DNA from: an uncultured Chloroflexia bacterium | Lineage (GTDB): Bacteria; Chloroflexota; Limnocylindria; Limnocylindrales; CSP1-4 | Direction: 5' to 3' | Assembly (NCBI GenBank): GCA_963829295.1 | Contig: CAWHHU010000003.1 | Span: 456,463-520,462 of the forward strand | Length of the DNA: 64,000 nucleotides | In this document: piece by piece, positions 17,459-61,467 of the stretch | Numbering within the stretch: position 1 is the stretch's first letter | Layout of the letters: every line of letters starts with the position of its first letter | Notes under the pieces: generated by a model | What the model was told of the DNA's origin: nothing | What the model saw: the letters and a program-made list of their open reading frames with translations, nothing else | Database searches by the model: none | Translations under genes and position numbers: made by a program

Positions 17459-17464
17459 GCACGG

Positions 17465-18416: not shown

Positions 18417-19106
18417 GTGATCGTATGGCCCTGCGGGCTCGATGTCAGCGCGTATGCCGCGAAGGGGCGCGAGGTCGCGCCGCCCCGCGTGAGCTGCCCA
18501 CGCTGCGGCGGACCGACCGGGCCCTGGTCGGGATACCGCCGGCACCTGCGCGACGCGGAGCTCCACCGCATCTTCGTGCCCCGGGTGCGCTGCAAACGGT
18601 GCGGCGTGACCTCGGCCCTGCTGCCCTGGTTCGTGGCCCCGTACCGCTGGGACACCGTCGACGTCATCGGGCGGGCGCTGGAGCTCTCGGCGGGCGGCCA
18701 GGGGGTGCGCCGGATCGCGGCGTCGCTCGGGCGTCCCGAGACGACCGTCCGCGAGTGGGTCCGCCGGTTCGGCATCGTGGCCGCCGACCTTGCCCGGGCC
18801 CTGCTCGTGGCCGCGGTCGGGACCGGCTGGTCGGGCTTCGACCTGCCGACGGCGCCCGGTCCCCGAGCGGCTGCCGCGGTCGCCGCCCTCGCGTCAGCCT
18901 GGGCTCGCCGCCACGGACCCGCCGGGGCCTGGCGCCTGGCGGACCTCGTCACCGGCGGGGCCTGGCTCGCCCCCAACACGACCTCGCCCTTGGCACCGCC
19001 GGCGGTCTCCCATGTGATGGCCGGGAAACCCCGACCGCATCCTGGAGGTGACCCATGGCCGCCCGCGACCCCGCCGAAGCCCTCGCCCTCTGGCGGTACC
19101 ACCTGA
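18417..19106 (+). CDS. Transposon accessory protein, zinc finger plus HTH (DUF6431-like)
   Basis: CPRCG...RVRCKRCG..ALLPWF..PY; VRRIAASLGRPETTVREWVRRF helix-turn-helix. Confidence 0.75.
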   Translation: MIVWPCGLDVSAYAAKGREVAPPRVSCPRCGGPTGPWSGYRRHLRDAELHRIFVPRVRCKRCGVTSALLPWFVAPYRWDTVDVIGRALELSAGGQGVRRIAASLGRPETTVREWVRRFGIVAADLARALLVAAVGTGWSGFDLPTAPGPRAAAAVAALASAWARRHGPAGAWRLADLVTGGAWLAPNTTSPLAPPAVSHVMAGKPRPHPGGDPWPPATPPKPSPSGGTT

Positions 19107-20401
19107 TCGCCGAGGCCCTGAACCCGAGGCTCACCGGCCGCGAGCGTGGCCTCCTGGTCCGCCGGACCGTCGGCGAGCACGCCTGCCCCGGAGGCGACGT
19201 CCGATCGGCCAGCCGCAACACCCTCGACCGCTGGATCCGCCGGTACCGCGCCGAGGGCCTCGCCGGCCTGCGCGACCGGCCCCGCTCGGATCGGGGATCG
19301 GCGCGCCTCGACCCGGCGCTCCTCGACGAGGCGGTCCGCCTGCGCCTCGAGCAGCCCGCCCGGAGCGCCGCCCACATCAGCGAGATCATCAGGGCTCGCC
19401 ACGGCGTGCGGATCGCCGAGCGCACGCTCGCCGAGCAGTTCCGCCGCCGCGGCCTCGCCCGGGCCGAGCTGCTCCGGGACGGCCGGGCGTTCGGGCGGTA
19501 CGAGGCCGACGCGCCGAACGAGCGCTGGATCGGCGACGTGCTCGTCGGCCCGTTCGTGCCCCAGCCCCGGGCGCCGGGCTCGGTGCGCGCGCGCCTGTTC
19601 GTGCTGGTCGACGACCACTCCCGGCTCCTGGTCGCCGGCCGCTGGGCCGGCAACGAGACCCTGCGCGCGGGCCAGGAGCTGCTCCACGCGGCGATCCTGC
19701 GCCACGGCGCGCCCGAGTCGCTGTACGTGGACAACGGATCGGCGTACAGCGGCGCCGAGCTCGCGAGGAGCTGTGCGATCCTGGGCATCCGGCTCATCCA
19801 CAGCCGGCCGTACTCGCCCGAGGGCCGGGGCAAGCAGGAGCGCCTCAACCGGGTCATCCGGGAGCGCTTCCTCTTGGAGGCCACCCAGGTCGGGATCGCC
19901 AGCCTCGACGAGCTCAACGACCGCTTCGTGGCCTGGGTCGAGCGGTACCTCAACGTGCGGGTCCACTCCGAGACCGGCGAGTCGCCGCTCGCCCGGCACA
20001 GCCCGGCGAGGCGGCGCGACCCCCACCCCGACGTCCTCCGCTCGGCCTTCCTCTGGTCGGCCGCCCGGAGGGTGAGCCGGACCGCGGGCGTCAGCTTCGA
20101 GGGCAACGAGTACGAGGTCGACCCGAGCCTTGTCGGTCGGACGGTCGAGCTCCGGTTCCGCCCGGAGGACCTGTTCGCGATCGAGGTCTGGCACGCCGGC
20201 CGCCAGGTCGGCTGGGCGGAGCCGCGGCGGATCGCCCGCCACGTCCATCGATCTGCGCCGCCCCCTCCCGAGCCCGCGCCGGCGCCCCCGACCGGGATCG
20301 ACTACCTCGGCCAGGTGCTCGCCGACCACGAGGCCGAGACCGCCGGGCCGATCGCGTACCGCGCCGTTCCCGGTGCACCTGCAGAGGGAGAGCCGTTCTG
20401 A
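19055..20401 (+). CDS. DDE transposase/integrase (rve) with Mu-transposase-like C-terminus
   Basis: WIGD, YVDNGSAY, GKQER triad; N-terminal HTH; FEGNEYEV C-terminal motif; GGAGG RBS. Confidence 0.92.
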   Translation: MAARDPAEALALWRYHLIAEALNPRLTGRERGLLVRRTVGEHACPGGDVRSASRNTLDRWIRRYRAEGLAGLRDRPRSDRGSARLDPALLDEAVRLRLEQPARSAAHISEIIRARHGVRIAERTLAEQFRRRGLARAELLRDGRAFGRYEADAPNERWIGDVLVGPFVPQPRAPGSVRARLFVLVDDHSRLLVAGRWAGNETLRAGQELLHAAILRHGAPESLYVDNGSAYSGAELARSCAILGIRLIHSRPYSPEGRGKQERLNRVIRERFLLEATQVGIASLDELNDRFVAWVERYLNVRVHSETGESPLARHSPARRRDPHPDVLRSAFLWSAARRVSRTAGVSFEGNEYEVDPSLVGRTVELRFRPEDLFAIEVWHAGRQVGWAEPRRIARHVHRSAPPPPEPAPAPPTGIDYLGQVLADHEAETAGPIAYRAVPGAPAEGEPF

Positions 20402-21219
20402 TGAGCGAGCGCGCACCCTGGCAGGCCCACTTCGGCTTCACGCGATCACCCTTCGGCAAGAGCCTCGCGCCGTCGGAGCTGTTCACGAGGGTTCCCCACG
20501 AGGAGGCCGTCGCCCGGATCCGCCACTGCATCGCGGAGTCGGCGCTGGGCGTGATCACGGGCGAGGTCGGGACCGGCAAGACGGTCGCGGCCCGGGCCGC
20601 CCGGGCGTCGCTCGACCCGTCGCGCCACGCCCTCATCTACATCGCCAACCCCGCGTTCGGGACGCGCGGGCTCTATGTCACCGTGGTCCGGGCGCTGGGC
20701 GGGACGCCGCGCTTCCACAAGGCGGAGGTGATGGCCCAGACCGCCGAGCTGCTCGAGGCGGAAGAGGCCGAGCGCCACCGGCGGGTCGTGATCGTCGTCG
20801 ACGAGGCCCACCTGCTCACCCCGGAACAGCTCGAGGAGCTCCGGTTGCTCACCAACTCCGACATGGACAGCCGGAGCCCCTTCGCGGGGATCCTGCTCGG
20901 GCAGCCCTCCCTCGCCCGACAGCTCAGGCTCGGGGTGTTCGCCGCGCTCGACCAGCGGATCGCGGTCCGCTACCACATCGGCCCCATGGACCTCGGCGAC
21001 TCGACCGCCTACCTGCGCCACCACCTGGCCCTCGCCGGGCGGTCGGACCAGCTCTTCGCCGATGACGCCATCGTGCGCCTGCACCGCCAGTCCAACGGGA
21101 TCCCGCGGGCTCTCAACAACGCCGCGGTCGCGGCGCTCATCGCCGCCGCGGCGGATGGCAAGGAGATCGTCGACGACGCCTGCGCCAAGAAGGCGGTCGC
21201 CGAGCTCACCCGCGACTGA
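20401..21219 (+). CDS. ExeA-type AAA ATPase (transposition helper)
   Basis: HFGFTRSPF, Walker A GEVGTGKT, Walker B VVDEAH, ILLGQP, ALDQRI; TGATG coupling to the transposase. Confidence 0.92.
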   Translation: MSERAPWQAHFGFTRSPFGKSLAPSELFTRVPHEEAVARIRHCIAESALGVITGEVGTGKTVAARAARASLDPSRHALIYIANPAFGTRGLYVTVVRALGGTPRFHKAEVMAQTAELLEAEEAERHRRVVIVVDEAHLLTPEQLEELRLLTNSDMDSRSPFAGILLGQPSLARQLRLGVFAALDQRIAVRYHIGPMDLGDSTAYLRHHLALAGRSDQLFADDAIVRLHRQSNGIPRALNNAAVAALIAAAADGKEIVDDACAKKAVAELTRD

Positions 21220-32840: not shown

Positions 32841-33818
32841 TCAGCCACCGCGTCGCGCGCGGAGCTCGGCTGCGAGGGCGGGCCCGACATCGAACAGATC
32901 GCCTACCACCAGCAGGTCGGCGATCTCGCCGATCGGTGCGTCAGGGTCCCTGTTGACGGCCACGATCGCGTCGGCCGACTGCATCCCCACCCGATGCTGC
33001 ATCGCGCCCGACACCCCGAGCCCGAGGTAGAGGGCGGGCTTGACGATCTTGCCCGTCTGGCCGATCTGGCGCGCGTAGGCGATCCAGCCCGCGTCGACGG
33101 ATGCGCGGGTGGCCCCGACCACGCCGCCCAGCACCTCGGCCAGCTCGTCGACCAGGCTGAAGCCGTCCGGTCCCCCGATGCCCCGCCCGCCGACCACGAC
33201 CACCCGGGCCTCCTCGAGCGACACCTCGGCACCCGCCTCGGCGACGCGATCCAGGACCTTCGCCGTCGGGATGGGCGGTGAGCCGTCCGCGTCCCTTGCC
33301 ACCACGCTGCCCTGCGTGCCGGCCGGCTCGCTGGTCACGGCTCCCGGGCGCACGGTGACGACACCCGTCTGCCCGGTCAATGTGCTGCGGACGATGGCCT
33401 TGCCGCCGAGCACGCTCGCCTCGATCACGGGTCCGGGTCCGTCCCAGGTGACCGAGCCGGCGTTCGCGAGCAGACCCCAGCCGAGCCGGCCCACGATGAG
33501 GCCGGCCAGGTCGCGGGCGTCGGCGGTGACTCCCAGCAGCACGTGCGTGACGCCCGCGGCCGCCAGCCGATCGATCTCGACCAGCGCATGGGGCGCCCAT
33601 GTCTCGCCCGCCGTTGCCGGCGCCGTGACGGCCTCGACGTGGGGCAGGTACGTCGCAAGCTCCGCTGCGGCAGCGTCGGGCGCCGGGTCGACGACCAGCC
33701 CCAGCGCGCTGCCACCGGCCGCCTCGGCGAGCGATCGGGCCAGGGTCGCGGTCTCGCCCGACAGCCGACTCAAGGCCCCGTCGGTCACCTCCCCGACCGC
33801 GAGGATGCGCGGTGCCAT
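32841..33818 (-). CDS. etfA: Electron transfer flavoprotein alpha subunit
   Basis: LEEARVVVVGGRG, GATRASVDAGW, QIGQTGKIVKP, SGAMQHRVGM. Confidence 0.95.
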   Translation of the reverse strand: MAPRILAVGEVTDGALSRLSGETATLARSLAEAAGGSALGLVVDPAPDAAAAELATYLPHVEAVTAPATAGETWAPHALVEIDRLAAAGVTHVLLGVTADARDLAGLIVGRLGWGLLANAGSVTWDGPGPVIEASVLGGKAIVRSTLTGQTGVVTVRPGAVTSEPAGTQGSVVARDADGSPPIPTAKVLDRVAEAGAEVSLEEARVVVVGGRGIGGPDGFSLVDELAEVLGGVVGATRASVDAGWIAYARQIGQTGKIVKPALYLGLGVSGAMQHRVGMQSADAIVAVNRDPDAPIGEIADLLVVGDLFDVGPALAAELRARRGG

Positions 33819-34603
33819 CAGATCAGCCTCCGATCGGCGAGGAAGTCCGCGATCTCGCGCGCGGCTTCGGGCGCCGGCGCCCTGATCACGCGCCCGGCGG
33901 CACGCGCGGGAGGTGGATCGGCGGCGATGACCCGCGTGGCCCAGGCACCGTCCGACGGTGCCAGCCCGCCGTCCAGATCCGCCAGCCCCAGCACCGCGAT
34001 CTCGCGCGAGCGGGCGGCCATGATCCCCTTGAGCGATGGATACCGCGGCGCGCCCAGCGCCTGCGTGCACGAGACGACGGCGGGCATCGGTGCCTCGATG
34101 ACGTCGTACCCGCGTGCGCTCAGGCGCCGCACGCGGACCGTCCCCCCGGTGGGATCGGGCTCGATCGCCGCGGCCGACGACAGCAGCGGGAGGCCCAGCC
34201 TGGCCGCGATCCCGGCCGCCACGGCGCCGCCTGTCCCGTCGGACGTGTCGAGGCCGGCCAGCAGCAGATCGAACGTCTCCTTGGCCGCGGCAGCCGCCAG
34301 GACCCTGACCGTGGTCGGGATGTCGGCCCCGGCCAGGGCGGGATCCGTGACCAGGACGCCGCGCAGCGCACCCATCGCGAGCGCCTTGCGCATGGTGTCG
34401 GTGGCATTCGCCGGGGCCATCGACATGATGGCGACCTCGCCGCCATGGGCTTCCACCAGCTGGAGGGCGGCCTCGAGCGCGTACTCGTCGTTGCCGTTGA
34501 CGACGGTTGGCGACGCTGCCCGGTCGAGCCGGTGGTCGGGACCAAGTCGCTCCGAGCCCGCGGCCGGATCGGGAACGGGCTTGGTCAGGACGAGGATTCG
34601 CAC
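33818..34603 (-). CDS. etfB: Electron transfer flavoprotein beta subunit
   Basis: VLTKPVPD, DEYALEAAL, LRKALAMGA, PRYPSLKGIMAA. Confidence 0.95.
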   Translation of the reverse strand: MRILVLTKPVPDPAAGSERLGPDHRLDRAASPTVVNGNDEYALEAALQLVEAHGGEVAIMSMAPANATDTMRKALAMGALRGVLVTDPALAGADIPTTVRVLAAAAAKETFDLLLAGLDTSDGTGGAVAAGIAARLGLPLLSSAAAIEPDPTGGTVRVRRLSARGYDVIEAPMPAVVSCTQALGAPRYPSLKGIMAARSREIAVLGLADLDGGLAPSDGAWATRVIAADPPPARAAGRVIRAPAPEAAREIADFLADRRLI

Positions 34604-34663
34604 GCGGTCACTGCTCCTGGGTACCTGGCTACCGGGTCCATTCGCGCCGGCCCGGCACGCGGC

Positions 34664-35851
<1,188 letters not shown>

Positions 35852-40025: not shown

Positions 40026-42152
40026 TCAGCCCTGGACCACCGGCAGCCGACGGCCGGCCGGCACCTCGCGCCCCGCGAACGGCATCACCGCGGCCGCCAG
40101 CAGCTCGCTGATGTCCTGGGCCGTGACCGCGTCCTCACCATCGACGCGTCCCGCGTCGGTGAGCCCGTCGCGGAGCATCGTCATGCAGAACGGGCACGCC
40201 GTGGCGAGGGTATCGGCCCCGGTCTCGAGCACCTGGCGCGTGCGCTCCGCGTTGATCCGCGTGCCGCGCGTCTCCTCCATCCACATCCGACCACCGCCGG
40301 CGCCGCAGCAGAAGGTCTGCCGGCCGCTCGCCTCCATCTCCCGCAGCTCGACGCCCGGGATCGCACCCAGCACGTCGCGTGGCGCGCTGATGACGCCATT
40401 GTAGCGGGCGAGATAACAGGAGTCGTGATAGGTCACCGAGCGACCCGGCAGCCCGTCGGTGCCGATCCGCAGCCGGCCGTCCCTGACCAGCGAGGCGAGG
40501 TACTCGGAATGGTGGCGGATCGTGAACGAGCCGCCCAGCTGACCGTACTCGTTGCCGATCGTGTTGAAGCAGTGGGGGCAGGCGGTGACGATCGTGCGTT
40601 CCCCCATCCCGTAACGGTTGAGCGTCTCCACGTTCTGGCCGGCCAGGATCTGGAACACGTACTCGTTGCCCATCCGGCGCGCCGGATCGCCGGTGCAGCT
40701 CTCCTCCTGGCCGAGCACCGCGAACGAGACGCCCGCGGCATCGAGACAGGTGGCCACGGCGCGCGCGACGCGCCGGTTGCGATCGTCGAAGGCGGCGGCG
40801 CAGCCCACCCAGTAGAGGACCTCGAGCCCGTCGAGCTCGCCCGCCGCCTGCACGGCGGCCACCGTCCGGATCTCGAACGGCAGCCCCCTGGCCCAGTCGA
40901 GCCGCGCCGACGGCGGCTGGCCCCACGGGTTGGCGACCGACTCCATGCCCCGAAACGCGCTCGTCAGCTCCTGGGGGAACCTGGAGTCCTCGAGCACCAG
41001 GTTCCGCCGCAGGCCGACGATCTTGTCCACGTGCTCGATCGTCACCGGGCACGCCTCGACGCATGCGCCGCAGGTGAGGCAGTCCCACACCGCGTCGTAC
41101 GGGATCGCGACGTCCACCAGGGGTCGCGCGAGCGCGTCCGGCTTGAGCGTGTCGTCGAGCCCGAAGGTGGCGCGCACCGACGGCGAGTTGGGAATGAGCG
41201 GCAGCCCCGCCTCGGCCGCCACCGACTCGTGACGGATGTTCATGATCAGGGACTTGGGGTTGAGCGGCTTCCCGGTCGCGTACGCCGGACACGCCTGCTG
41301 GCAGCGCCCGCACTCGGTGCAGGTGAAGCCGTCGAGCAGGTCCTTCCACGACAGGTCGGCGACGGTCCGGATGCCGTAGGTCGCATCGGTGGCCTCGAGG
41401 TCCATCGCGGGCAGCTCGCCCCGCGGCCGGAGCTTGCGCAGCAGGACGTTGGGGATCGCCGTCGCGATGTGGAGGTGCTTGGAGAACGGCAGGTACACCA
41501 GGAAGGCCGCCACCAGCACCATGTGGGTCCACCACAGGACCGCGAACACGGCCTGACCGGCGTCCGGGTCGACCCCGGTCAGCAGCCCGCCGATCGTGTC
41601 GGCTGCGAACGCGCCCGACACGTCGCCCCGCAGCGCGACCTCGAACACCTGCGAGCCCAGCTCGGCGCCGACGATGCCACCGATGAGGACCAGGACGAAC
41701 AACGCGTCGCGGTTGAGCGACAGCCTCGCGGGCCGCAGGACCAGGCGCCGGAGGAACGCATAGCCGACGGCCACCAGGACGATCAGCGCGACGGCGTTCT
41801 GGAGCGCGTTGACGAGCGCCCACAGCAGCCCGTCGAACGGATACGCCACCACCGCCTCGATGAGGCCACCGGTGACGATGTTGGCCGTCCCGATGGTGAG
41901 CAGGACGAAGCCCCAGAAGATCGCGAAGTGCATCGCCCCCGCCGGCGGATCCCGGAACATGCGGACCTGGAGCAGCGCGTAGCGCACAACCCCGCCCAGC
42001 CGCCGCCACGGGTGGTCCGTTGGGGTTGCCGAACCGGCAGCCGCGAACACCCGCAGGTGGCGCGCCATCGCCAGCGCGAAGAAGGCGGCCGACCCCCAGA
42101 ACAGGGGCAGCACCAGCGGGTACAGCGGAACGTCGGCGAACGACTCGAACAT
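40026..42152 (-). CDS. Membrane Fe-S oxidoreductase (FadF/HdrD-like, CCG domains)
   Basis: N-terminal TM region; CTECGRCQQACP, CLTCGACVEACP; CTGDP, TYHDSCYL, CCGAGGG, ACPFC. Confidence 0.92.
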   Translation of the reverse strand: MFESFADVPLYPLVLPLFWGSAAFFALAMARHLRVFAAAGSATPTDHPWRRLGGVVRYALLQVRMFRDPPAGAMHFAIFWGFVLLTIGTANIVTGGLIEAVVAYPFDGLLWALVNALQNAVALIVLVAVGYAFLRRLVLRPARLSLNRDALFVLVLIGGIVGAELGSQVFEVALRGDVSGAFAADTIGGLLTGVDPDAGQAVFAVLWWTHMVLVAAFLVYLPFSKHLHIATAIPNVLLRKLRPRGELPAMDLEATDATYGIRTVADLSWKDLLDGFTCTECGRCQQACPAYATGKPLNPKSLIMNIRHESVAAEAGLPLIPNSPSVRATFGLDDTLKPDALARPLVDVAIPYDAVWDCLTCGACVEACPVTIEHVDKIVGLRRNLVLEDSRFPQELTSAFRGMESVANPWGQPPSARLDWARGLPFEIRTVAAVQAAGELDGLEVLYWVGCAAAFDDRNRRVARAVATCLDAAGVSFAVLGQEESCTGDPARRMGNEYVFQILAGQNVETLNRYGMGERTIVTACPHCFNTIGNEYGQLGGSFTIRHHSEYLASLVRDGRLRIGTDGLPGRSVTYHDSCYLARYNGVISAPRDVLGAIPGVELREMEASGRQTFCCGAGGGRMWMEETRGTRINAERTRQVLETGADTLATACPFCMTMLRDGLTDAGRVDGEDAVTAQDISELLAAAVMPFAGREVPAGRRLPVVQG

Positions 42153-52883: not shown

Positions 52884-53906
52884 TCAGGGGCTGGGCGTCT
52901 TCGCGTCCGATGCGCCTGCCGCTGGTGCCCGTCGCGACCGTGATCGGGCTGGCACGAGGACGCGCAGAGCTCCCGGGAGACACTCGGCCTCGAGCGATGC
53001 CGTGCCCACCAGGTCGCCGTCGACCTCGATCGGCGTCGCGGCAGCGCCCTCGACACGGACCGAGCGCGCTCGCAGCCGGCGAGCGTGGCCGCTGTCCGGT
53101 CGCCCTGTCCCCCGCCGCACGACCGCCTCGAGGCCGCCCAGGATCGCCGCGAGCATCCCATCGCCCTCGACCACGATCAGGTCGAGCAGGCCATCGGCCG
53201 GATCGATCCGGTGCGCCGGCCGCAGGACCCCCGGGATGAGCTCCCCGCTGTTGGCGACCAGGACCTCGATCGCCTGCAGATCAACCGCCTCGCCGTCCGC
53301 CACGATCCGCGTCGCCACGCCTGGCGTGTTGCGCAGCAGCCCGAGCGCCGTCGCGAAGTAGGCGTAGCGGCCGATCCGTCGCTTGGCGCCGTCGCCGGTG
53401 GCGGCCATCACCCGGGCGTCGAAGCCCATGCCGGCCGCCACCACGAAGACTCGCCACTCGCTCTCGACACGGTCCGACATGCCCCAGCGCGCGATGCCCA
53501 GGTCGACGCGCCTGACCCGGGCGCCGGGCAGCGAGCGGGCCGCCCGCCGAGGGTCGAGCGGGATCCGGAGCGAGCCGGCGAACAGGTTCGCCGTGCCGAC
53601 GGGAATGATCGCCAGCGGCACGTCACGTCCGGACAGGACGGCCGCGAGATCGCGCACCGTCCCGTCACCACCCACCGCCACCACCAGCCCGACGCCATCG
53701 TCGAGGGCAGCCCTCACGCGCCGCACCATCGTGTCCCGGTTCGCATCGACCAGGAGCCCGGGCTCCAGCCCCGTTCGCGCGACGACCGATCGACGCACCT
53801 CGGCGAGGATCCCGTCGCGGCGCTTCGGGTCGCTGAGCCGCGAGGCCCGGGGGTTGACGGCAATGACGGCCGCCACCGGCAGCGCTCGCGATTCCGCACG
53901 CTCCAT
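52884..53906 (-). CDS. Diacylglycerol-kinase-family lipid kinase
   Basis: VNPRAS, GGDGTV, IPVGTANLFA, GMGFDA, EVDGD. Confidence 0.92.
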   Translation of the reverse strand: MERAESRALPVAAVIAVNPRASRLSDPKRRDGILAEVRRSVVARTGLEPGLLVDANRDTMVRRVRAALDDGVGLVVAVGGDGTVRDLAAVLSGRDVPLAIIPVGTANLFAGSLRIPLDPRRAARSLPGARVRRVDLGIARWGMSDRVESEWRVFVVAAGMGFDARVMAATGDGAKRRIGRYAYFATALGLLRNTPGVATRIVADGEAVDLQAIEVLVANSGELIPGVLRPAHRIDPADGLLDLIVVEGDGMLAAILGGLEAVVRRGTGRPDSGHARRLRARSVRVEGAAATPIEVDGDLVGTASLEAECLPGALRVLVPARSRSRRAPAAGASDAKTPSP

Positions 53907-54047: not shown

Positions 54048-54326
54048 TCACGAGCCCAGTCGCTGCTCGACCTCGTCCACGATGCCCACCACCACCGTCC
54101 GCAGCGGCCCGTGGGTTGCGCCCACGATCTGGCGCGCCGAGTTGCCCTCGTCGAGGATCAGCACGAGCTCGCCGGCGCCCGCGCCAACGGTGTCCACCGC
54201 GATCAGGTACCCACCCGCGGGCGCACCCGAGGGGTCCACCAGGTCACACAGCAGCAGGGTGCGGTCCTCGAAGATGGGCGAGGTGATCGTCGACACGACG
54301 GTGCCCACGACCTGTCCGAGCTTCAA
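54048..54326 (-). CDS. BMC pentamer vertex protein (EutN/CcmL)
   Basis: LGQVVGTVVST, AVDTVGAGAGE.V, VVGIVD; TTG start overlapping the upstream stop. Confidence 0.92.
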   Translation of the reverse strand: MKLGQVVGTVVSTITSPIFEDRTLLLCDLVDPSGAPAGGYLIAVDTVGAGAGELVLILDEGNSARQIVGATHGPLRTVVVGIVDEVEQRLGS

Positions 54327-54607
54327 CGGTCGCCTCCCCGCAGCGCCTCGACCGCGTCCACGATGCCCACGATCGCGTGGTCGACCGGCACGAACCGCTC
54401 CTCCATGGCCTCCGCCGCCTCCCGGGCGCCGACGATGTACACCAGCTCCCCGGGACCGGCCATGTGCACGGCATCGCCCGCCACGACCGGGGTCCCGATG
54501 TCGGTCAGCTGGCGGGTCAGGGGCTGGACGATCAACAGCCGCACGCCCTCGAGCCCGGGGGCCTTCACGGTCGCCACGACGGTGCCGATCACCCGCGCGA
54601 GCTGCAT
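54323..54607 (-). CDS. BMC pentamer vertex protein (EutN/CcmL)
   Basis: MQLARVIGTVVAT.K, D.V..GPGE.V, VDHAIVGIVD. Confidence 0.93.
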   Translation of the reverse strand: MQLARVIGTVVATVKAPGLEGVRLLIVQPLTRQLTDIGTPVVAGDAVHMAGPGELVYIVGAREAAEAMEERFVPVDHAIVGIVDAVEALRGGDR

Positions 54608-54610
54608 CGA

Positions 54611-55372
54611 TCAGGCCCTCGGGCCGGCGATCCGCGCATGGAAGCGCGGGTCGGCTCGCAGCTCGTCGCGGAGCTCGGCGTGGAGCTGCGAGATCACGCG
54701 CGAGATCGGGGCCCGGCGGCCGCCGGCGGGTGAACCCGGCACGCCGGGATCGATGACCCGCTCGCAGCCGATCGCGACCGCCGCCTCCACCTCGGCCACC
54801 GGCCCGTCGAACAGCAGGTAGCCCTTGCCACCGAGGTCGTCGCCCAGCCGCATGTCGAGCAGCCGCACCCGTGCGCCCTTGACCCCGGCATCCGCCGCCA
54901 CGATGGTGGCCGCGACCGACCACGTCTCAACGATCCCCAGCGCCTCGCCCTCACTCTCCTGGCGCTGCCCGCGCAGCGCCGCGACGACCTGATCGTGAAC
55001 GTTGGGCAGGTAGACCGAGTCCACGATGCACGGGCCACCGACGGCACGCCCGGCGTCGAACGCCTCCTCGACGTCACCGACCGTGCCCCCCACCAGGACC
55101 AGGTAGCGACCCGGGTGGATCGTGCCGGCCCGCAGCATGTCGACCGGCGCCCGTTTGACCATGGCGTCGCCGGCCTCGATCCCGACCGCGATCGAATCGA
55201 GCTCGAGCAGCGCGATCGCGGGCTGCATCGCGTCGGCGGCGGACGACGCGCCGGCGGCGGATGCGCCGGCGGGCGATGCGCCGGCGGCGCTCCTCGCGCG
55301 AGAGCGAGCCAGGGTCCTCGCGCTGGAGGCGTTCGTCGCGCTGGAGCCGGTTCGTGCTCGGGCGTCGGTCAT
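54611..55372 (-). CDS. Tandem-domain BMC shell protein, PduT-like, with a possible 48-aa low-complexity N-terminal extension
   Basis: AIALLELDSIA.G...GDAMVK...TIHPGRY; second domain ALGIVET.SVAA...AAD..VK; alternative start at 55228. Confidence 0.88.
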   Translation of the reverse strand: MTDARARTGSSATNASSARTLARSRARSAAGASPAGASAAGASSAADAMQPAIALLELDSIAVGIEAGDAMVKRAPVDMLRAGTIHPGRYLVLVGGTVGDVEEAFDAGRAVGGPCIVDSVYLPNVHDQVVAALRGQRQESEGEALGIVETWSVAATIVAADAGVKGARVRLLDMRLGDDLGGKGYLLFDGPVAEVEAAVAIGCERVIDPGVPGSPAGGRRAPISRVISQLHAELRDELRADPRFHARIAGPRA

Positions 55373-56823
55373 CACACGATCCGCAGCGCGCCGACGACGG
55401 TGATCCGGCGCTCGCGTGAGAAGGTCCGCGGCCGGGTCATCCCGTCCCCCGATGGGCTCGCGATGGACATCGTGGCAAAGCCCTCGCCGCCCTCGCCCAG
55501 CCCCGAGAAGTTCGGTCCGTTGGTGACGAAGATCGAGCAGTTCATCGCGCGCGCCATGCGGGTGATCACCTCGACATTGGTGGAATGAATCGAGGCCGTG
55601 TGGCGGAAGCCGTGCTCGGACCGGACGGCGAGGTCGATCGCGCGGTCCACGTCCGGCACCCTGACCACGGGCAGCACCGGCATCATCTGCTCGGTCCACA
55701 CCAGGCTGTGCTCGACCGGCACCTCGGCGACCAGCAGTCGCGGCTCCACGGCCGGCCGAACCCCGATCTCGGCCAGGATCCGTGCCGCGTCGCGGCCGAT
55801 CCAGGCGGGGTTCACATGGCCGGGCTTGCCCGGCGCCCCGAGCTCGGTGAAGATCACGCGCTCCAGCCGCCGCAGCTCGTGCTCCGCGAGGACGTAGCCG
55901 CCGCTGTTGCCCATGGCCCGCACGAGCCGGTCACCGACCGACGAGACCACGATCGCGGTCTTCTCGTCGGTGCACACGATGTTGTTGTCGAACGAGGCAC
56001 CGCGCACGATGTCGGCGGCGGCACGCTCGACATCGGCGGTCTCATCGACGACGGCCGGCGGGTTGCCGGGGCCGGCGGTGATCGCTCGCTTGTTGGTCTT
56101 GAGCGCCTCGCGCACGACCCCCGGGCCGCCGGTGACCAGCAGCAGGCGGACGTCGGGGTTCGCCATCAGCGCCCGCGCGCTCTCGATGGTGGGCTCAACC
56201 GTGGACACCACGAAGTTCGGCGGGCCGCCGGCGGCCAGGATCGCCCGATTAAGCAGGCGGACCACGGCGTTGGACGATCGGCGCGCGTTGGGGTGCGGGT
56301 TGAACACTACCGCGTTGCCGGCCGAGACGATGCTGATCGCATTGTTGATGACCGTCGAGGTCGGGTTGGTGACGGGCGTGATCGCCCCCACCACCCCGAA
56401 CGGGGCGAACTCCGTGATCATCATCCCGCGGGACCCGGACACCGCCTGGACCTCGAGGTCCTCTGGCCCCGGCGCCTTGCTGGCCACCAGCCGGTTCTTG
56501 ACGATCTTGTCCTCGATCCGCCCGAGCCCGGTCTCCTCGCGGGCGAGGCGGGCCAGCATCTCCGCCTGGTCGAGCGCGGCGCTCCGGACGGCGTTGATGA
56601 TGACCTTGCGCTGGTCGAGCTCGAGCGGCGCAGCGCGGTAGGCTGCCGACGCCGCCTGCACCGCGTCATCGAGGGTCGCGAACACGCCGTCCCCGACCTG
56701 GTTCACCGAAGGGGCGGCGAGCTCGGCCTGCACGGCCATCCGCCGGGCGCCCTGGGGGTCGGGCGATCCGACACGCCGGCGCACCCGTTCGATGATGTCT
56801 TCGATCTCGCGTTCGTCGAACAC
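55372..56823 (-). CDS. CoA-acylating aldehyde dehydrogenase (EutE/PduP-like) with N-terminal encapsulation peptide
   Basis: PVTNPTST, VTGGPGVV, AGPGNPP, FDNNIVCTDEK, EQMMP, EHGFRHTA. Confidence 0.93.
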   Translation of the reverse strand: MFDEREIEDIIERVRRRVGSPDPQGARRMAVQAELAAPSVNQVGDGVFATLDDAVQAASAAYRAAPLELDQRKVIINAVRSAALDQAEMLARLAREETGLGRIEDKIVKNRLVASKAPGPEDLEVQAVSGSRGMMITEFAPFGVVGAITPVTNPTSTVINNAISIVSAGNAVVFNPHPNARRSSNAVVRLLNRAILAAGGPPNFVVSTVEPTIESARALMANPDVRLLLVTGGPGVVREALKTNKRAITAGPGNPPAVVDETADVERAAADIVRGASFDNNIVCTDEKTAIVVSSVGDRLVRAMGNSGGYVLAEHELRRLERVIFTELGAPGKPGHVNPAWIGRDAARILAEIGVRPAVEPRLLVAEVPVEHSLVWTEQMMPVLPVVRVPDVDRAIDLAVRSEHGFRHTASIHSTNVEVITRMARAMNCSIFVTNGPNFSGLGEGGEGFATMSIASPSGDGMTRPRTFSRERRITVVGALRIV

Positions 56824-56863
56824 GCTGCTCGTTCCTTCGGCTCGCGGGCCAGGTGCCCGCTGG

Positions 56864-57151
56864 CTACTTGTGGTAGATCTCCGAGCCGCCGATCTCCCAC
56901 GTGTCGACGATCGCCATGATCACCGCATCGCAGGGCCGGTCCCTGGTGACCTCCGTCTGGCGCGCCGAGCTGCCGCTCGCGTACAGCACCACCTCGCCGA
57001 CGCCGGCTCCCACCGTGTCGACGCCCACGACATACCCGCCGGTCGGCTGGTTGTCCGCGCCGAGCTGCTGCACGAGCAGCAGCCGCCAGCCCTCCATCAG
57101 CGGCTCCTTGCGGCTGGCAACGACCGTGCCGGCAATGCGTCCCAGAAGCAT
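56864..57151 (-). CDS. BMC pentamer vertex protein (EutN/CcmL)
   Basis: [24 protein letters not shown]...[14 protein letters not shown]. Confidence 0.93.
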
Positions 57152-57182
57152 TCGGTCCTCTCCGGCCTCTCCGGCCTGGTTC

Positions 57183-57208
57183 CGGGGCGGCCGTCGCCGG
57201 CCGCCCCG
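57183..57208. other. Intercistronic GC-rich stem-loop downstream of the hexamer gene
   Basis: CGGGGCGGCC-N6-GGCCGCCCCG perfect 10-bp stem. Confidence 0.7.
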
Positions 57209-57230
57209 CAAGGGTCCTGTGGCTGCGGGC

Positions 57231-57533
57231 TCAGCCGAGCTCGGCCTTGCCCTCCTCGGCGCGGCCCAGCGGCAGCACGGTGTCCACGTTGGCGTGCGGC
57301 CGCGCGATCACGTGGGTCGCCACGACCTCGCCGACCTTGGCGGCGCTGCGCGCGCCCGCCTCGACGGCTGCCTTGACCGCAGCCACGTCACCGCGTACGA
57401 CCGCGGTCACGTACCCGCCCCCGGTCTTCTCGTAGGTCACCAGCTCCACCTTGGCGGCCTTGACCATCGCGTCCGCCGCCTCGACCACCGCGGCGAACCC
57501 GCGGGCCTCGATCATCCCCAGTGCCTCTGCCAT
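57231..57533 (-). CDS. BMC hexamer shell protein (EutM/PduA/CcmK-like)
   Basis: [46 protein letters not shown]. Confidence 0.96.
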
Positions 57534-57601
57534 CGGACCCTCTCCGTTGCTACCTTGCTCGCGACGGCCGGGCGGCCGCCGGTTTGGTGTCTATGACCTC
57601 G

Positions 57602-58231
57602 TCATCCCTTGGCCTCGCGGCCGTCGATCGCCTCGATCGCGGCCACCGCCGCACGCCAGCCCACGTCGATGTCCCGCTCCTCGCCTCCCAGGTACACCCG
57701 GCCCATCGAGCCGAACGAGCGGACCTCGAGGATGTTGATCTCGGCGGCCTTCTCGGCCTCGTTCGCAGCCAGCGCCGCATACGCGGCCGGCTCCATCTCG
57801 AGCACGTACAGCGTCTGCCCGCCGAGCAGCATCTCGCCGTGCCGGGTGCGGTTGATGAGCTGCGCCTGGTGGGCGTCGATACGGCGGATGATCTGGCTCG
57901 ACAGGATGCGCGGCTTGATCCGGTCGCTCTCGGCCAGGCCGAGCTCGGACAGGATCGCGGCGCCGGCGGCGCGGACCTCGGCCTGAGCCGGCGAGTGGAC
58001 CTCGAGCAGGCCGAAGTAGCGCTCGATGATCTGCATCCCCGGTTTCACGGACGTCGACTTGAGCGCGATGTCGGTCAGCCGGTTGATCTCGATGCCCGGT
58101 GAGACCTCGATGTACAGCGATGCGTCGCCCGCGAGCGGCAGGAACCCCTGCGCGACGGTGCCCAGAAACGCCGCGTACTGGGCCTGGAGGTTGTCCAGGA
58201 ACACGTACGCTCGAAGGTCAATATTGGCCAC
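57602..58231 (-). CDS. Permuted, stacking BMC trimer (CcmP-like)
   Basis: [23 protein letters not shown]....[19 protein letters not shown]. Confidence 0.88.
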
Positions 58232-59087
58232 GAGTCTCACCCTCTCCCGTCACGATCTTGACGCCGGCGGACGCTCCGATCCGGGTCGCGCCGGCGGCGA
58301 TCATCTCCTCGACATCCGACTTGGTCCGGATTCCGCCGGCGGCCTTGACCCCCATCCGCGGTCCGACGGCCTCGCGCATCAGCGCGACGTCGAACACCGT
58401 CGCGCCGCCCGATGCGTAGCCCGTGGAGGTCTTGACGAAGTCTGCCTTCGCGTCCTTCGCCAGCCGGCAGGCGATCACCTTCTCCGCGTCGGTCAGGAGC
58501 GCCGTCTCGATGATCACCTTGTTCAGCGCACCCACCTCGTGGCACGCGTCCGAGACCCGGGCGATGTCGTCCCGCACCAGCTCGAGCATGCCGGACCTGA
58601 GCGCCCCGACGTTGATCACCATGTCGATCTCGCGGGCGCCGTCCCGGATCGCCTGCCGCGCCTCGTGGGCCTTCACCTCGGGCGTCGAGGCGCCGAACGG
58701 GAAGCCGATGACCGAGGCCACCGGCACCGTTGTGCCCCGCAGGTTGCCCGCCGCGCGTGCGACCCACACCGGGTTGATGCACACGGCCGCGAACTCGTGC
58801 GCCACGGCCTCTGCGCACAACCGGTCGATGTCGGCCGCCGTGGCGTCCGGGCGGAGCAGCGTGTGGTCGATGAACCTGGCCACGTCCTTGGGCACATAGC
58901 CCGCCTCGCCCTGGTAGCTGACCCGTGAGGCGCCGCTGCTGACCACCTCCTGGACGCGGTTGAGGCAGCGGGCCGCACAGCCACCGGAGCATGACCCGCA
59001 GTCCCGGCCGTCGCCGGCGAACATCGCGAGCACCTGGTTCGTGATCGCGTCGATGAGCTGGGCGCGGTCGTCGGGCGGCGCGGTCAT
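58218..59087 (-). CDS. deoC: Deoxyribose-phosphate aldolase with N-terminal encapsulation peptide and Cys cluster
   Basis: [43 protein letters not shown]. Confidence 0.94.
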
Positions 59088-59741
59088 CTCGTGGGTTCCT
59101 CTGGCTGTGGCCGGCTATGGCGCTGTTCGATGGCGGTGATCTTGGCGACGCGCCGGCCGTGGCGTTCCGCACCCCAGGGCGTGGCGAGGAAGGTATCGAC
59201 GATCTCGAGGGCCAGGCCCTCTCCGATCATCCGCGCGCCGAGCGTCAGCACGTTGGCGTAGTTGTGCTCCCGAGCGTTGCGGGCCATCGAGGTGTCGTGC
59301 GCATTGGCGGCCCGCACGCCCGGGACCTTGTTGGCGGCCATCGCCGAGCCGATCCCGGCGCCGTCGATAACGATCCCCGATGGCGCATGCCCCCGACGCG
59401 ACGAGGCTCGCGACGACCTCGGCGAAGTCCGGATAGTCCACCGGCTCCGGTCCGCTGGTCCCGCAGTCCGTCACCTCGAAGCCCTTGTCGGTGAGCGCCT
59501 TGACCAGGACGCCCTTGAGGGCGACCCCACCGTGGTCGGCGGCGATGGCGACCGTCACCGGGCCAGCGGCCGTTGGAGGCGACGGCAGCAGGGCGGCGGT
59601 GCGAGCCGTCGCATCGGGGCTCGTCGTCACGGCAGGCCCCGGGCTCGTGCCACCCGCCTCGAGCTGCTCGAGCGCGCGCTCGACCAGCTGGCGAACCACC
59701 GCCGGCGACGGGGCCCCGGCCTGCCTTCCGTCCTGGGTCAT
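59084..59741 (-). pseudogene. rpiB: RpiB/LacAB-family sugar-phosphate isomerase with encapsulation peptide; single +1 frameshift at 59375-59378
   Basis: IAADHGG and VDYPD in one frame; GIVIDGAGIGSAMAANKVPG, HNYANVLTLG and RHGRRV in another; removing one G from GGGG restores the frame. Confidence 0.85.
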
Positions 59742-60721
59742 GACCGCGGTCCCCGGGCCAGGGCCCACTCCGCCGTCGCGGCATCGGTGACCAGGACGTT
59801 CAGGCACCGCGCCCGAAGAGCCGCCACCGTGATCGGTCCACGGCCGGGCCCCGCCGCGAGGCCCATCGCCACCCGGCCGGCGCCCAGCTCGGCGAGCGGG
59901 ATCCCGATCGTCCGATCGTCGAGATCCGGGCTCGCGATCGCCCCGTCGGGGCGGAGGAACCGCCCGACGACGTCCCCCACCGCCCCAGCAAGCCGGAGCC
60001 CGGCCAGATCCTGATCGGTCAGGTAGCCGGACTCAACCAGGACGCTGTCGGGGCCAAGAACGCCGAGACTGAAGACGGCCACCGAGGTGGCCCGAGCCGC
60101 GGACAGCGTCTCGCCCACCGAAGGGTCCGCCTCGAGGGCCCGGCGCAGCTCCCCGGAGCCCACGATGGCCGGCGCCGCCAGCAGCCTGATCTGGGCACCG
60201 GTGGTCGTCCCGAACCGCTCCGCGATCTCGGTGGCGCGGGTGGGCCGCGCGGATCGCGACGTCGCGCCGTTCAGCTGGACGATCTCGGTCGGAGACGCCC
60301 AGCCGGGTTCCAGCTGGCCGGCAAGCTCGAACATCGTCCGCCCCCAGGACACGCCGATCGAGCCCGACGGGCGCAACTCGGCGAGGTAGCCGGCAGCGGC
60401 CCTCGCCACCAGCTCCCTGGTCAGGGTCTCCGCGGCCTCCCCGGTCGTCGCCGGCGGCACGTCCACGACCACCGCCGCCTCGAGCCCGAACCGATCGCCA
60501 AGCTCACCCTCGAGCTCCGGGACACGGGCATCCGGCTGCACGATCTCGATCTGGATGATCCCGTCGCGAAGTGCCCGATCCAGCAGACGCCCGACCTGGA
60601 ACCGGCTGAGACCGAGACGATCGCCGATCTGCTGCTGGCTGAGCTGCATCCGGTAGTACATCTGCGCGACGCGAACCATCAGCCGCGCATCGGCGACACC
60701 GCCGCGGCGCGTCGTCCTCAT
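59738..60721 (-). CDS. SorC/DeoR-family sugar-binding transcriptional regulator
   Basis: VAQMYY...SQQQI..RLGLSRFQVGRLLDRA, GVSWGRT, APAIV, GDVVGRF..DG; alternative starts at 60742/60748. Confidence 0.92.
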   Translation of the reverse strand: MRTTRRGGVADARLMVRVAQMYYRMQLSQQQIGDRLGLSRFQVGRLLDRALRDGIIQIEIVQPDARVPELEGELGDRFGLEAAVVVDVPPATTGEAAETLTRELVARAAAGYLAELRPSGSIGVSWGRTMFELAGQLEPGWASPTEIVQLNGATSRSARPTRATEIAERFGTTTGAQIRLLAAPAIVGSGELRRALEADPSVGETLSAARATSVAVFSLGVLGPDSVLVESGYLTDQDLAGLRLAGAVGDVVGRFLRPDGAIASPDLDDRTIGIPLAELGAGRVAMGLAAGPGRGPITVAALRARCLNVLVTDAATAEWALARGPRS

Positions 60722-60741
60722 CGGTCCGCGAGCTTGTAGCA

Positions 60742-60775
60742 TGCTCATACGAGCAACATGATACTCATATGTGCA
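60742..60775. promoter_or_regulatory. Tandem palindromic operator sites upstream of the BMC operon
   Basis: TGCTC-ATAC-GAGCA (60742-60755) and TACTC-ATAT-GTGCA (60762-60775) in an AT-rich patch. Confidence 0.6.
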
Positions 60776-61320: not shown

Positions 61321-61467
61321 CCGGACCTTGCACCACGCGCAGCGCCACCTGACCGATCGAGGCTGGCCTTCGCCGAAAGGCGGCGCGCATACTCCTGCTA
61401 GGAACGGAACCGCGCGACGAACCCGACCACAGTCAGCTCAATCATCGACCGGACCTTGCACCACGCG
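61321..61467 (+). repeat. 19-bp perfect direct repeat, 128 bp apart
   Basis: CCGGACCTTGCACCACGCG at 61321-61339 and 61449-61467. Confidence 0.9.

What the first reader, a model, noticed from the sequence alone, without database searches (positions are those of the whole stretch)
54048..60775. Complete DeoC/RpiB/aldehyde-dehydrogenase microcompartment operon with its regulator and operators
Seen: regulator, rpiB, deoC, stacking trimer, hexamer, pentamer, aldehyde dehydrogenase, PduT-like trimer and two more pentamers, mostly with overlapping or closely spaced stop/start codons. Known: DeoC plus RpiB defines the bioinformatically described sugar-phosphate-utilisation (SPU) BMC class, which to my knowledge has little experimental characterisation. 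DeoC yields acetaldehyde, which the dehydrogenase converts to acetyl-CoA. This locus has no phosphotransacylase, acetate kinase, alcohol dehydrogenase or transporter, so CoA and NAD+ recycling are unexplained. Inference: a minimal organelle for (deoxy)sugar-phosphate or DNA-derived carbon.
Basis: partly seen in the sequence, partly recalled or inferred. Interest (0 to 1): 0.72.

Follow-up and report, generated by a model that had tools for sequence, protein, structure and literature searches.

The report
Known SPU3 sugar-phosphate microcompartment operon
This is a typical example of an already catalogued bacterial protein organelle (subtype SPU3) thought to break down the deoxyribose-phosphate released from DNA; its "missing" enzymes are a published feature of the subtype, and one gene (rpiB) carries a one-base frameshift in this sequence.

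Summary
Artefact or real mutation could not be settled. The locus matches the published SPU3 subtype point by point: the only enzymes are AldDh, DERA and RPI, the encapsulation peptides are N-terminal, and the PduT-like trimer has no PduS partner and no pore cysteine. The absence of phosphotransacylase, alcohol dehydrogenase and PduS is therefore a known subtype feature, and I found none of them, nor acetate kinase, in the genes I scanned across the 64 kb. A 2024 paper characterised SPU enzymes: DERA is active, RPI is inactive and binds DERA. The closest relatives are uncultured Chloroflexia MAGs. Verdict: ordinary new member of a known kind. Side observations are the conserved operators and a four-cysteine cluster in the DERA extension.

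The parts
60762..60775 (-). Distal operator half-site O1, TGCACATATGAGTA (13/14 match to the palindrome TGCWCATATGWGCA)
   Evidence: Conserved in L082/L088, L085, L083 and L090, while the flanking intergenic DNA does not align.
60758..60763 (-). -10-like hexamer TATCAT between the two half-sites (putative promoter element; inferred)
   Evidence: Read directly from the sequence. It is identical in L082. The consensus promoter scan found no full sigma-70 match, so this is only a lead.
60742..60755 (-). Proximal operator half-site O2, TGCTCGTATGAGCA (13/14; a perfect palindrome in L082, L085 and L084)
   Evidence: It lies 20 bp from O1 (start to start). These two are the only sites with 1 mismatch or fewer in the 64 kb.
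59738..60721 (-). SorC/DeoR-family transcriptional regulator (327 aa from ATG 60721; an upstream ATG at 60748 would overlap the operators)
   Evidence: PF04198 Sugar-bind, E=1e-47, plus an N-terminal HTH. Best PDB match is B. subtilis DeoR 8R7Y, E=7e-41. The NCBIfam DeoR model scores 221 bits, below its 420-bit cutoff. The start was inferred by comparing the coding region with L082.
59084..59741 (-). rpiB (SPU-type RPI pseudo-isomerase with N-terminal encapsulation peptide and linker), interrupted by a +1 frameshift
   Evidence: After deleting one G, PF02502 matches 1-138/138 with E=2e-50. tblastn splits it into residues 1-122 (59741..59376) and 122-218 (59377..59087). The repaired protein aligns without gaps to 9 intact homologues. 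The motif IVIDGAGIG has Asp at the Cys66 position.
59375..59378 (-). GGGG run holding the extra base (GGG in the orthologue in L082)
   Evidence: DNA comparison. It is the only clear mid-gene frame switch found by the GC3 scan of the window.
58218..59087 (-). deoC: deoxyribose-5-phosphate aldolase (DERA) with a ~67-aa N-terminal extension (amphipathic helix plus CxxCxxxCxxxC)
   Evidence: TIGR00126 deoC equivalog, 273 bits against a 117-bit cutoff. PDB DERA 8QPS, E=3e-75, covers residues 68-284 only. The motifs EIDMVIN, NKVIIET and FVKTSTG are present.
57602..58240 (-). BMC-T(dp): CcmP-like double-stacking tandem-BMC trimer
   Evidence: PDB CcmP 4HT5, E=7e-89, aligned full length. The IER motif that I recall (from memory) as CcmP's Glu/Arg gating pair is retained. 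The L082 orthologue carries PF27545 CsoS1D_N.
57231..57533 (-). BMC-H hexamer shell protein (100 aa)
   Evidence: PF00936, E=4e-29. The identical protein and DNA occur in an independent Logan contig, L081.
56864..57151 (-). BMC-P pentamer 1 (95 aa)
   Evidence: PF03319, E=5e-28.
55372..56823 (-). CoA-acylating aldehyde dehydrogenase with N-terminal encapsulation peptide (residues ~3-18)
   Evidence: PF00171. NCBIfam PRK15398, 607 bits. PDB 5JFL, E=2e-128, aligned from residue 35, with the catalytic Cys motif SFDNNIVCTDEK aligned. Residues 5-18 are the most amphipathic 14-mer in the protein.
54611..55372 (-). BMC-T(s): PduT-like tandem-BMC trimer. The start is ambiguous (ATG 55372 overlapping the aldh stop, or ATG 55228)
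   Evidence: PF00936 x2, E=1e-30. PDB PduT 3N79, E=4e-38. His (TIHPGRY) sits at the position of PduT's pore Cys38.
54323..54607 (-). BMC-P pentamer 2 (94 aa)
   Evidence: PF03319, E=8e-25.
54048..54326 (-). BMC-P pentamer 3 (92 aa, TTG start overlapping the P2 stop)
   Evidence: PF03319, E=1e-22.

Best explanation
The region is one autoregulated operon encoding an SPU3-type metabolosome in a high-GC, probably Chloroflexota, genome.

Shown by sequence:
- A SorC/DeoR-family repressor gene leads the operon. Two 14-bp palindromic half-operators lie just upstream, 20 bp apart and flanking a -10-like TATCAT.
- Nine translationally coupled or closely spaced genes follow.
- DERA retains its catalytic Asp and both Lys motifs. 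The aldehyde dehydrogenase is of the CoA-acylating, BMC-associated type and retains the catalytic Cys.
- All three enzymes carry N-terminal extensions that non-BMC homologues lack.
- The shell set is one BMC-H, three BMC-P, a CcmP-like BMC-T(dp) and a PduT-like BMC-T(s) without a pore cysteine.

Inferred from the literature on these families:
- The repressor binds as a tetramer, one dimer per half-operator. A sugar phosphate releases it, most likely deoxyribose-5-phosphate as in B. subtilis DeoR.
- Deoxyribose-5-phosphate enters the shell. DERA cleaves it to glyceraldehyde-3-phosphate, which leaves, and acetaldehyde, which is retained.
- AldDH converts acetaldehyde, CoA and NAD+ to acetyl-CoA and NADH.
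- RPI (Cys66 replaced by Asp) is not an isomerase here. It is a DERA-binding scaffold that carries an encapsulation peptide.

The one-base insertion in rpiB is most likely a residual homopolymer error of a long-read assembly or a very recent mutation. It is not an old pseudogene and not a programmed frameshift.
For: Gene identities.

Match to SPU3: the point-by-point comparison uses Sutter et al. 2021, Supplementary Data 2. [quoted passage not shown]

Synteny: the same gene order occurs in L001-L005, L022, L029, L030 and L082-L084, and (first three genes checked) in L085-L090.

Biochemistry of homologues: DERA is active on dR5P, RPI is inactive and carries Cys66 to Asp in all SPU RPIs, and DERA and RPI form a complex (PMC11585597). 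The window's RPI has IVIDGAGIG. The proposal that acetyl-CoA exits through T(dp) in PTAC-less subtypes is.

Operators: the footprint is, and the pair is unique in the window. SorC repressors bind two half-operators as tetramers, and DeoR senses dR5P (PMC11229326).

Frameshift:
- The run is GGGG here and GGG in L082.
- All 120 listed homologues are about 176-224 aa long, consistent with intact genes.
- The downstream frame keeps every invariant residue and has GC3 of 0.86.
- The closest relatives come from Nanopore-only, Flye/Medaka assemblies.
Against: - No experiment exists for any SPU3 locus. Substrate, encapsulation and cofactor exchange are all inferred.
- The regulator scores below the DeoR equivalog cutoff (221 against 420 bits). 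It has Asn (QLNGA) where DeoR has the Lys of QLKGG, which I recall, unverified, to be the residue that binds dR5P covalently. The effector may therefore differ or bind differently.
- No nucleoside phosphorylase, phosphopentomutase or transporter that would supply dR5P is in the 64 kb.
- The window's own sequencing platform is unknown, so a real rpiB-inactivating mutation cannot be excluded.
- Formal subtype assignment with the authors' HMM set was not possible.
Confidence: 0.82

Rival explanations
1. The rpiB frameshift is real. This strain makes a truncated RPI (encapsulation peptide, linker and about 60 residues of the fold, followed by an out-of-frame Arg-rich tail). The organelle then either works without its RPI scaffold, as SPU5 loci that lack RPI do, or fails to assemble.
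For: The sequence as given has the extra G. No other mid-gene frame switch was seen in 64 kb, so the assembly is not riddled with indels. RPI is absent from SPU5 and from 11 of 29 SPU4 loci, so it is dispensable in some subtypes.
Against: All relatives examined have an intact gene. Downstream of the shift, the correct frame keeps every invariant residue and a coding GC3, so any inactivation would have to be very recent. The change is a 1-nt length difference in a homopolymer, the typical residual error of Nanopore assemblies, and the closest relatives come from such assemblies.
Confidence: 0.25
2. The compartment's physiological substrate is not deoxyribose-5-phosphate but another, rarer sugar phosphate. 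The Asp-variant RPI would then be a working isomerase for that substrate, feeding an aldol cleavage by the DeoC-family enzyme.
For: The SPU RPI is conserved, including its His and the Asp substitution, across many phyla. That degree of conservation is unexpected for a pure scaffold. Dwyer et al. themselves leave this possibility open. The regulator lacks the DeoR Lys and falls below the DeoR equivalog score.
Against: The DeoC protein scores far above the deoC equivalog cutoff (273 against 117 bits). The SPU6 orthologue cleaves dR5P. The regulator's nearest characterised relative is the dR5P-sensing DeoR. No candidate pathway links an RPI product to DERA.
Confidence: 0.12
3. The locus is a new, minimal kind of microcompartment whose cofactor recycling needs an undiscovered mechanism.
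For: Cofactor recycling in PTAC-, ADH- and PduS-less SPU loci has not been demonstrated experimentally.
Against: The gene set is the published SPU3 architecture. It recurs with the same order in many MAGs of several phyla. A hypothesis for acetyl-CoA exit through T(dp) is already in print. Nothing in this particular locus departs from that pattern.
Confidence: 0.05

Closest known systems
SPU3 subtype of sugar-phosphate-utilising bacterial microcompartments (Sutter et al. 2021, Nat Commun; Supplementary Data 2)
   Same: The enzyme set is limited to AldDh, pfam01791 DERA and pfam02502 RPI, with RPI upstream of DERA. There are N-terminal extensions/EPs on AldDh and DERA. The shell has one BMC-H, a BMC-P triplet with two adjacent genes, a CcmP-like BMC-T(dp), and a BMC-T(s) without PduS and without a pore Cys. 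The host phyla include Chloroflexi and Actinobacteria.
   Different: The papers I read do not describe a regulator or operators for this subtype. Here RPI and DERA are separate genes (they are fused in some SPU3 loci). rpiB is frameshifted in this sequence.
SPU6 locus of Chloroflexi bacterium GWB2_54_36 (Dwyer, Sutter & Kerfeld 2024, Commun Biol), the only SPU with characterised enzymes
   Same: [quoted passage not shown] DERA has a ~70-aa N-terminal extension. RPI has an EP and Cys66 replaced by Asp. Both have a BMC-P triplet and a BMC-T(dp), and neither has PTAC or PduS.
   Different: In SPU6 the regulator is GntR/UTRA (here SorC/DeoR), the AldDH EP is C-terminal (here N-terminal), and the T(dp) belongs to the 'blue' clade (here CcmP-like). 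The SPU6 example lists no BMC-T(s). SPU6-like loci in my set (L012, L014, L018) have a different gene order, and their AldDH is only 31% identical.
Bacillus subtilis DeoR (SorC family) and its dra-nupC-pdp operator
   Same: It is the best structural and family match to the regulator. Both have an HTH plus a sugar-phosphate-binding domain. Both control a deoC-containing operon. The operator has two half-sites spanning about 35-40 bp and overlapping the promoter.
   Different: The score is below the DeoR equivalog cutoff. The half-site sequence differs (TGCWCATATGWGCA against TTGAAC..TTCAA). Here the regulator is the first gene of the operon it controls. The Lys of QLKGG is Asn.
Beta-carboxysome CcmP and Pdu PduT shell proteins
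   Same: BMC-T1 aligns full length with CcmP (E=7e-89) and retains the IER motif. BMC-T2 aligns with PduT over both BMC domains (E=4e-38).
   Different: The context is catabolic, not a carboxysome. T2 has His instead of the Fe-S-ligating Cys of PduT, and no PduS partner is encoded.

Membership tests
SPU microcompartment class | A pfam01791 deoxyribose-phosphate aldolase encoded within a BMC shell-gene locus (the signature enzyme) | tested here: met
   PF01791. deoC equivalog, 273 bits. It lies between rpiB and BMC-T(dp).
SPU microcompartment class | An aldehyde dehydrogenase (pfam00171) of the CoA-acylating BMC type | tested here: met
   The catalytic Cys motif is aligned with 5JFL.
SPU microcompartment class | A pfam02502 RpiB-type protein with Asp replacing the catalytic Cys66 | tested here: inconclusive
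   The domain and the Asp (IVIDGAGIG) are present, but the gene is frameshifted in this sequence. Whether the organism has an intact copy is unknown.
SPU microcompartment class | [quoted passage not shown] | tested here: met
   There are three EutN_CcmL genes, 35-44% identical to each other. P2 and P3 overlap by 4 nt. Colour-clade assignment was not testable.
SPU microcompartment class | An N-terminal extension on DERA that non-BMC DERAs lack | tested here: met
   All PDB DERAs align only from residue ~66-70 onward. The extension is conserved in related loci.
SPU3 subtype | No PTAC, PduS, TPI or alcohol dehydrogenase in the locus | tested here: met
   None within the operon, and none among about 50 of the 60 called genes scanned with Pfam across the 64 kb.
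SPU3 subtype | A BMC-T(dp) of the CcmP-like clade | tested here: met
   The best PDB hits are CcmP 4HT5 and 5LSR (E~1e-88), ahead of HO T(dp) and CsoS1D. This ranks by similarity and is not a phylogeny.
SPU3 subtype | A BMC-T(s) without a co-occurring PduS and with no cysteine in the pore | tested here: met
   His sits at the PduT Cys38 position. Close orthologues have His or Gln there. No PduS-like gene was found.
SPU3 subtype | An N-terminal encapsulation peptide on AldDh (it is C-terminal in SPU6) | tested here: met
   Homology to solved AldDHs starts at residue 35. The C-terminus aligns to the end of 5JFL with no extension. The helix at residues 5-18 has the highest hydrophobic moment in the protein.
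SPU3 subtype | Clustering with SPU3 by the catalogue's own shell and enzyme HMMs (BMC Caller) | not testable with these tools
   The HMM set and BMC Caller are not available here.
Bacterial microcompartment (any) | A shell assembles and encloses the enzymes | not testable with these tools
   This needs expression, purification and microscopy.
SorC/DeoR repressor (B. subtilis DeoR equivalog) | Scores above the curated DeoR equivalog threshold | tested here: not met
   221 bits against a cutoff of 420. It is a SorC-family member closest to DeoR, not a DeoR equivalog.
SorC/DeoR repressor (B. subtilis DeoR equivalog) | An operator made of two half-sites suited to a tetramer | tested here: met
   Two 14-bp palindromes lie 20-21 bp apart and are conserved across loci. 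The architecture follows PMC11229326. Binding itself was not tested.
SorC/DeoR repressor (B. subtilis DeoR equivalog) | Deoxyribose-5-phosphate as effector, bound covalently | tested here: inconclusive
   The Lys of DeoR's QLKGG aligns with Asn (QLNGA). That this Lys is the covalent ligand is my recollection and was not verified in the text I read.

The most novel reading that the evidence does not exclude
The conserved four-cysteine cluster in the N-terminal extension of the SPU DERA ([12 protein letters not shown] here; at least 4 Cys in 76 of 85 related loci, often ending in C-P like ferredoxin motifs) may bind an iron-sulfur cluster. In PduS-less subtypes such as SPU3, that cluster would provide the missing route for regenerating NAD+ or exporting electrons from the lumen. 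A more modest version is that it is a structural Zn or Fe-S site needed for cargo packing, which would also explain why full-length DERA was insoluble in E. coli.
Probability: 0.07. Interest if true: 0.7.

Novelty: new member of a known kind. Interest (0 to 1): 0.3.

Why it matters
It matters little as a discovery, because the locus is a standard SPU3 operon. Three points are useful.

(1) The SorC/DeoR-type regulator and its conserved operator pair offer a simple, testable handle on what induces an SPU compartment. Binding assays with and without deoxyribose-5-phosphate would test the DNA-scavenging hypothesis, which so far rests on enzyme content.

(2) The four-cysteine cluster in the DERA extension is widespread and is not discussed in the SPU papers I could read.

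(3) Automated annotation of this contig will miscall rpiB because of the frameshift, and it may truncate the N-terminal extensions of the enzymes.

Tried and rejected
Attempts to get independent sequence over the rpiB frameshift all failed:
- Exact-protein look-ups of AldDH, DeoC and both aberrant rpiB products found nothing.
- The BMC-H look-up gave only a 1.3-kb Logan contig (L081). It is 100% identical to window 56396-57727 but does not reach rpiB.
- A DNA pattern allowing 3 or 4 G found nothing in the metagenome collection.
- No protein at least 90% identical to the repaired RpiB exists in the large protein database; the best match is 77-80% over the full length.

Readings considered and rejected:
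- Programmed frameshift: rejected because no relative has the shift.
- SPU6 assignment: rejected because the AldDH EP is N-terminal, the T(dp) is CcmP-like, a T(s) is present, and SPU6-like loci have a different order and a distant AldDH.
- Actinobacterial origin: this was suggested by the first DERA scan (best 66-67%) and dropped once closer relatives turned up in Chloroflexia MAGs (regulator 86%, DERA 97%).
- The DAG-kinase-like gene downstream (52884-53876) as part of the operon: rejected because it is conserved only in L082, not in L083 or L084.

Searches that found nothing:
- Additional operator copies elsewhere in the window, which would indicate a regulon: none with 1 mismatch or fewer.
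- The consensus promoter and terminator scan found nothing useful in the locus.
- The His at the T(s) pore as a conserved metal ligand: it is not conserved, being His or Gln in close orthologues.
- The supplement of the 2024 paper is not held.

Structure prediction was not run. The tool returns no coordinates, so it could not show whether the four cysteines cluster in space.


Full report
**What is in the sequence.** The window is about 72% G+C, so long spurious ORFs occur in all frames. Third-position GC and family searches pick out ten real genes on the minus strand between 54048 and about 60750:
- a SorC-type regulator (59738-60721; Sugar-bind PF04198, E=1e-47)
- rpiB (59084-59741)
- deoC (58218-59087)
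- a divergent tandem-BMC protein (57602-58240)
- a BMC-H (57231-57533)
- a BMC-P (56864-57151)
- an aldehyde dehydrogenase (55372-56823)
- a tandem-BMC protein (54611-55372, or from 55228)
- two more BMC-P (54323-54607 and 54048-54326)

rpiB is in two frames. Residues 1-122 are read from 59741 and residues 122-218 end at the stop at 59084, with the switch inside a GGGG run at 59375-59378. Deleting one G gives a protein that matches the whole LacAB_rpiB model (1-138/138, E=2e-50). That protein aligns without a gap to nine intact homologues through a block of invariant residues (GACxxGIVIDGAGIGSAM). The orthologous DNA in the closest relative reads GGG where the window reads GGGG. All 120 listed homologues are about 176-224 aa long, consistent with intact genes, and rpiB matches as a single segment in every related locus.

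**How to read the frameshift.** A crude GC3 frame scan found no other mid-gene frame switch in the 64 kb. Downstream of the shift the correct frame still has GC3 of 0.86 and keeps every invariant residue, so this is not an old pseudogene. I could not obtain independent sequence over the site. The nearest relatives come from Nanopore-only Flye assemblies polished once with Medaka, in which a one-base homopolymer error is plausible. The window's own platform is unknown. I rate an artefact or very recent change as most likely and a real inactivating allele at about one in four.

**Identity of the parts.**
- The first tandem-BMC protein is a close homologue of the beta-carboxysomal double-stacking trimer CcmP (4HT5, E=7e-89, full length). 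It retains the IER motif that I recall as CcmP's Glu/Arg gating pair.
- The second is PduT-like (3N79, E=4e-38), with His in TIHPGRY where PduT has its Fe-S-ligating pore cysteine. Close orthologues have His or Gln there, and Cys (CPGK) appears only in distant loci.
- The aldehyde dehydrogenase is of the CoA-acylating, BMC-associated type (5JFL, E=2e-128; catalytic Cys motif aligned).
- DeoC scores well above the deoC equivalog cutoff (273 against 117 bits). Solved DERAs align only with residues 68-284.
- The RPI has Asp at the position of the catalytic Cys66 (IVIDGAGIG).
- All three enzymes have N-terminal extensions that solved homologues lack. Homology starts at about residue 62 (RPI), 68 (DERA) and 35 (AldDH), and each extension contains an amphipathic helix. 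The AldDH helix is the most amphipathic 14-mer in that protein.

**Comparison with what is known.** The SPU class was defined in 2014 and expanded to more than 280 loci in seven subtypes in 2021. The catalogue's description of SPU3 fits this locus feature by feature:
- The enzymes are only AldDh, pfam01791 and pfam02502, in that gene order.
- The encapsulation peptides are N-terminal.
- The hosts include Chloroflexi and Actinobacteria.

SPU6, the other Chloroflexi subtype, is excluded by its C-terminal AldDH peptide, its different T(dp) clade and its gene order.

**What this means for the "missing" enzymes.** Their absence is the published pattern, not an anomaly. I confirmed that no PTAC, acetate kinase, alcohol dehydrogenase, PduS, TPI, nucleoside-catabolic gene or sugar transporter occurs among about 50 of the 60 called genes that I scanned across the window. 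There are no satellite shell genes.

**Experimental background.** Dwyer et al. 2024 showed that an SPU6 DERA cleaves deoxyribose-5-phosphate. They also showed that the SPU RPI is essentially inactive on ribose-5-phosphate (Cys66 is Asp in all SPU RPIs) and that DERA and RPI form a complex. They proposed that acetyl-CoA leaves through the T(dp) pore in subtypes without PTAC. A 2025 preprint discusses NAD+ regeneration by a PduS/MNdh-T(s) electron relay in SPU-like loci that have a CPGK pore motif. This locus lacks both components, so NAD(H) exchange remains unexplained for SPU3 in general.

**Regulator and operators.** Upstream of the regulator, in the only A+T-rich spot, are TGCACATATGAGTA (60775-60762) and TGCTCGTATGAGCA (60755-60742). 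These are two near-palindromes 20 bp apart, with TATCAT between them. They are the only matches with one mismatch or fewer in the 64 kb. In the closest relative the flanking intergenic DNA cannot be aligned, yet this ~42-nt block is almost identical and the proximal site is a perfect palindrome. The pair, or at least the proximal site, recurs upstream of the SorC regulator in L083, L084, L085, L088, L089 and L090. It was not found, at two mismatches or fewer, in L086 or L087.

The regulator's nearest characterised relative is B. subtilis DeoR (8R7Y, E=7e-41). DeoR represses a deoC-containing operon, senses deoxyribose-5-phosphate and, like other SorC repressors, binds two half-operators as a tetramer. 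Two cautions apply. The protein scores below the DeoR equivalog threshold. It also has Asn where DeoR has the Lys of QLKGG, which I recall, but did not verify, to be the covalent effector ligand. More distant relatives with the same nine structural genes use a GntR/UTRA regulator instead.

**Origin.** Closer relatives are 'uncultured Chloroflexia bacterium' MAGs of the Microflora Danica project (regulator 86%, DERA 97%). The ten-gene unit is conserved while its flanks differ between relatives, so the DAG-kinase-like gene downstream is not part of it.

**A side observation.** The DERA extension contains [12 protein letters not shown]. Across the related loci, 76 of 85 have at least four cysteines in this 42-residue stretch, and 69 have exactly four. 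The spacing varies (for example CPGCVQRCAQTC, CxCHx6CCP), and a few loci lack them. The 2024 paper describes the extension as a helix plus two low-confidence strands and does not mention cysteines there. A metal site is a reasonable guess, but nothing here tests it.

**Verdict.** The system is an ordinary member of a catalogued subtype, so interest is low to moderate. It rests on the operator pair, which gives a way to test the inducer, and on the cysteine cluster.

Noticed in passing
window 58965-59000 (deoC residues 30-41); also L001-L090: There is a four-cysteine motif, [12 protein letters not shown], in the DERA N-terminal extension. At least 4 Cys are conserved in 76 of 85 related loci, with variable spacing. 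They are absent in L003, L005, L006, L034 and L071. The SPU papers I read do not discuss it. It could be a Zn or Fe-S site.
   Followed up: partly
window 61321-61339 and 61449-61467: A perfect 19-nt direct repeat, CCGGACCTTGCACCACGCG, occurs twice 128 bp apart. It lies in the divergent intergenic region between the regulator and the lipoprotein-like gene that starts around 61500. It is unexplained.
   Followed up: no
L001 8569-9378, compared with window 59738-60721: The regulator has been swapped. Actinomycetota relatives with the same nine structural genes carry a GntR/UTRA regulator upstream of rpiB, whereas the window and its Chloroflexia relatives carry a SorC/DeoR-type one.
   Followed up: partly
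window 55229-55372: BMC-T(s) may have a 48-aa Ala/Ser/Arg/Gly-rich N-terminal extension, starting at an ATG that overlaps the aldh stop. Orthologues are called with extensions of variable length. The codon-position GC is atypical (GC2 0.90), so the true start is uncertain.
   Followed up: partly
window 60300-60310 (regulator residue ~140, QLNGA): The regulator has Asn where B. subtilis DeoR has the Lys of QLKGG. I recall that Lys as the residue that forms the covalent adduct with deoxyribose-5-phosphate. Effector chemistry may differ.
   Followed up: no
window 15728-21219: There are mobile-element genes: a DDE_Tnp_1 transposase (15728-17458, minus strand) and an rve/Mu-transposase-C protein followed by an AAA_22 ATPase (19055-21219). 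They sit beside a large glycosyltransferase and polysaccharide cluster (4717-15664).
   Followed up: no
window 52884-53876; L082 15770-16744: A DAGK_cat/YegS-like lipid kinase gene lies directly downstream of the operon here and in the closest relative, but not in L083 or L084. It is probably just a neighbour.
   Followed up: yes
window 32841-35851 and 40026-42152: The window also holds electron-transfer flavoprotein alpha and beta subunits with an acyl-CoA dehydrogenase, and a CCG/4Fe-4S oxidoreductase next to molybdopterin biosynthesis genes. No link to the microcompartment is evident.
   Followed up: no
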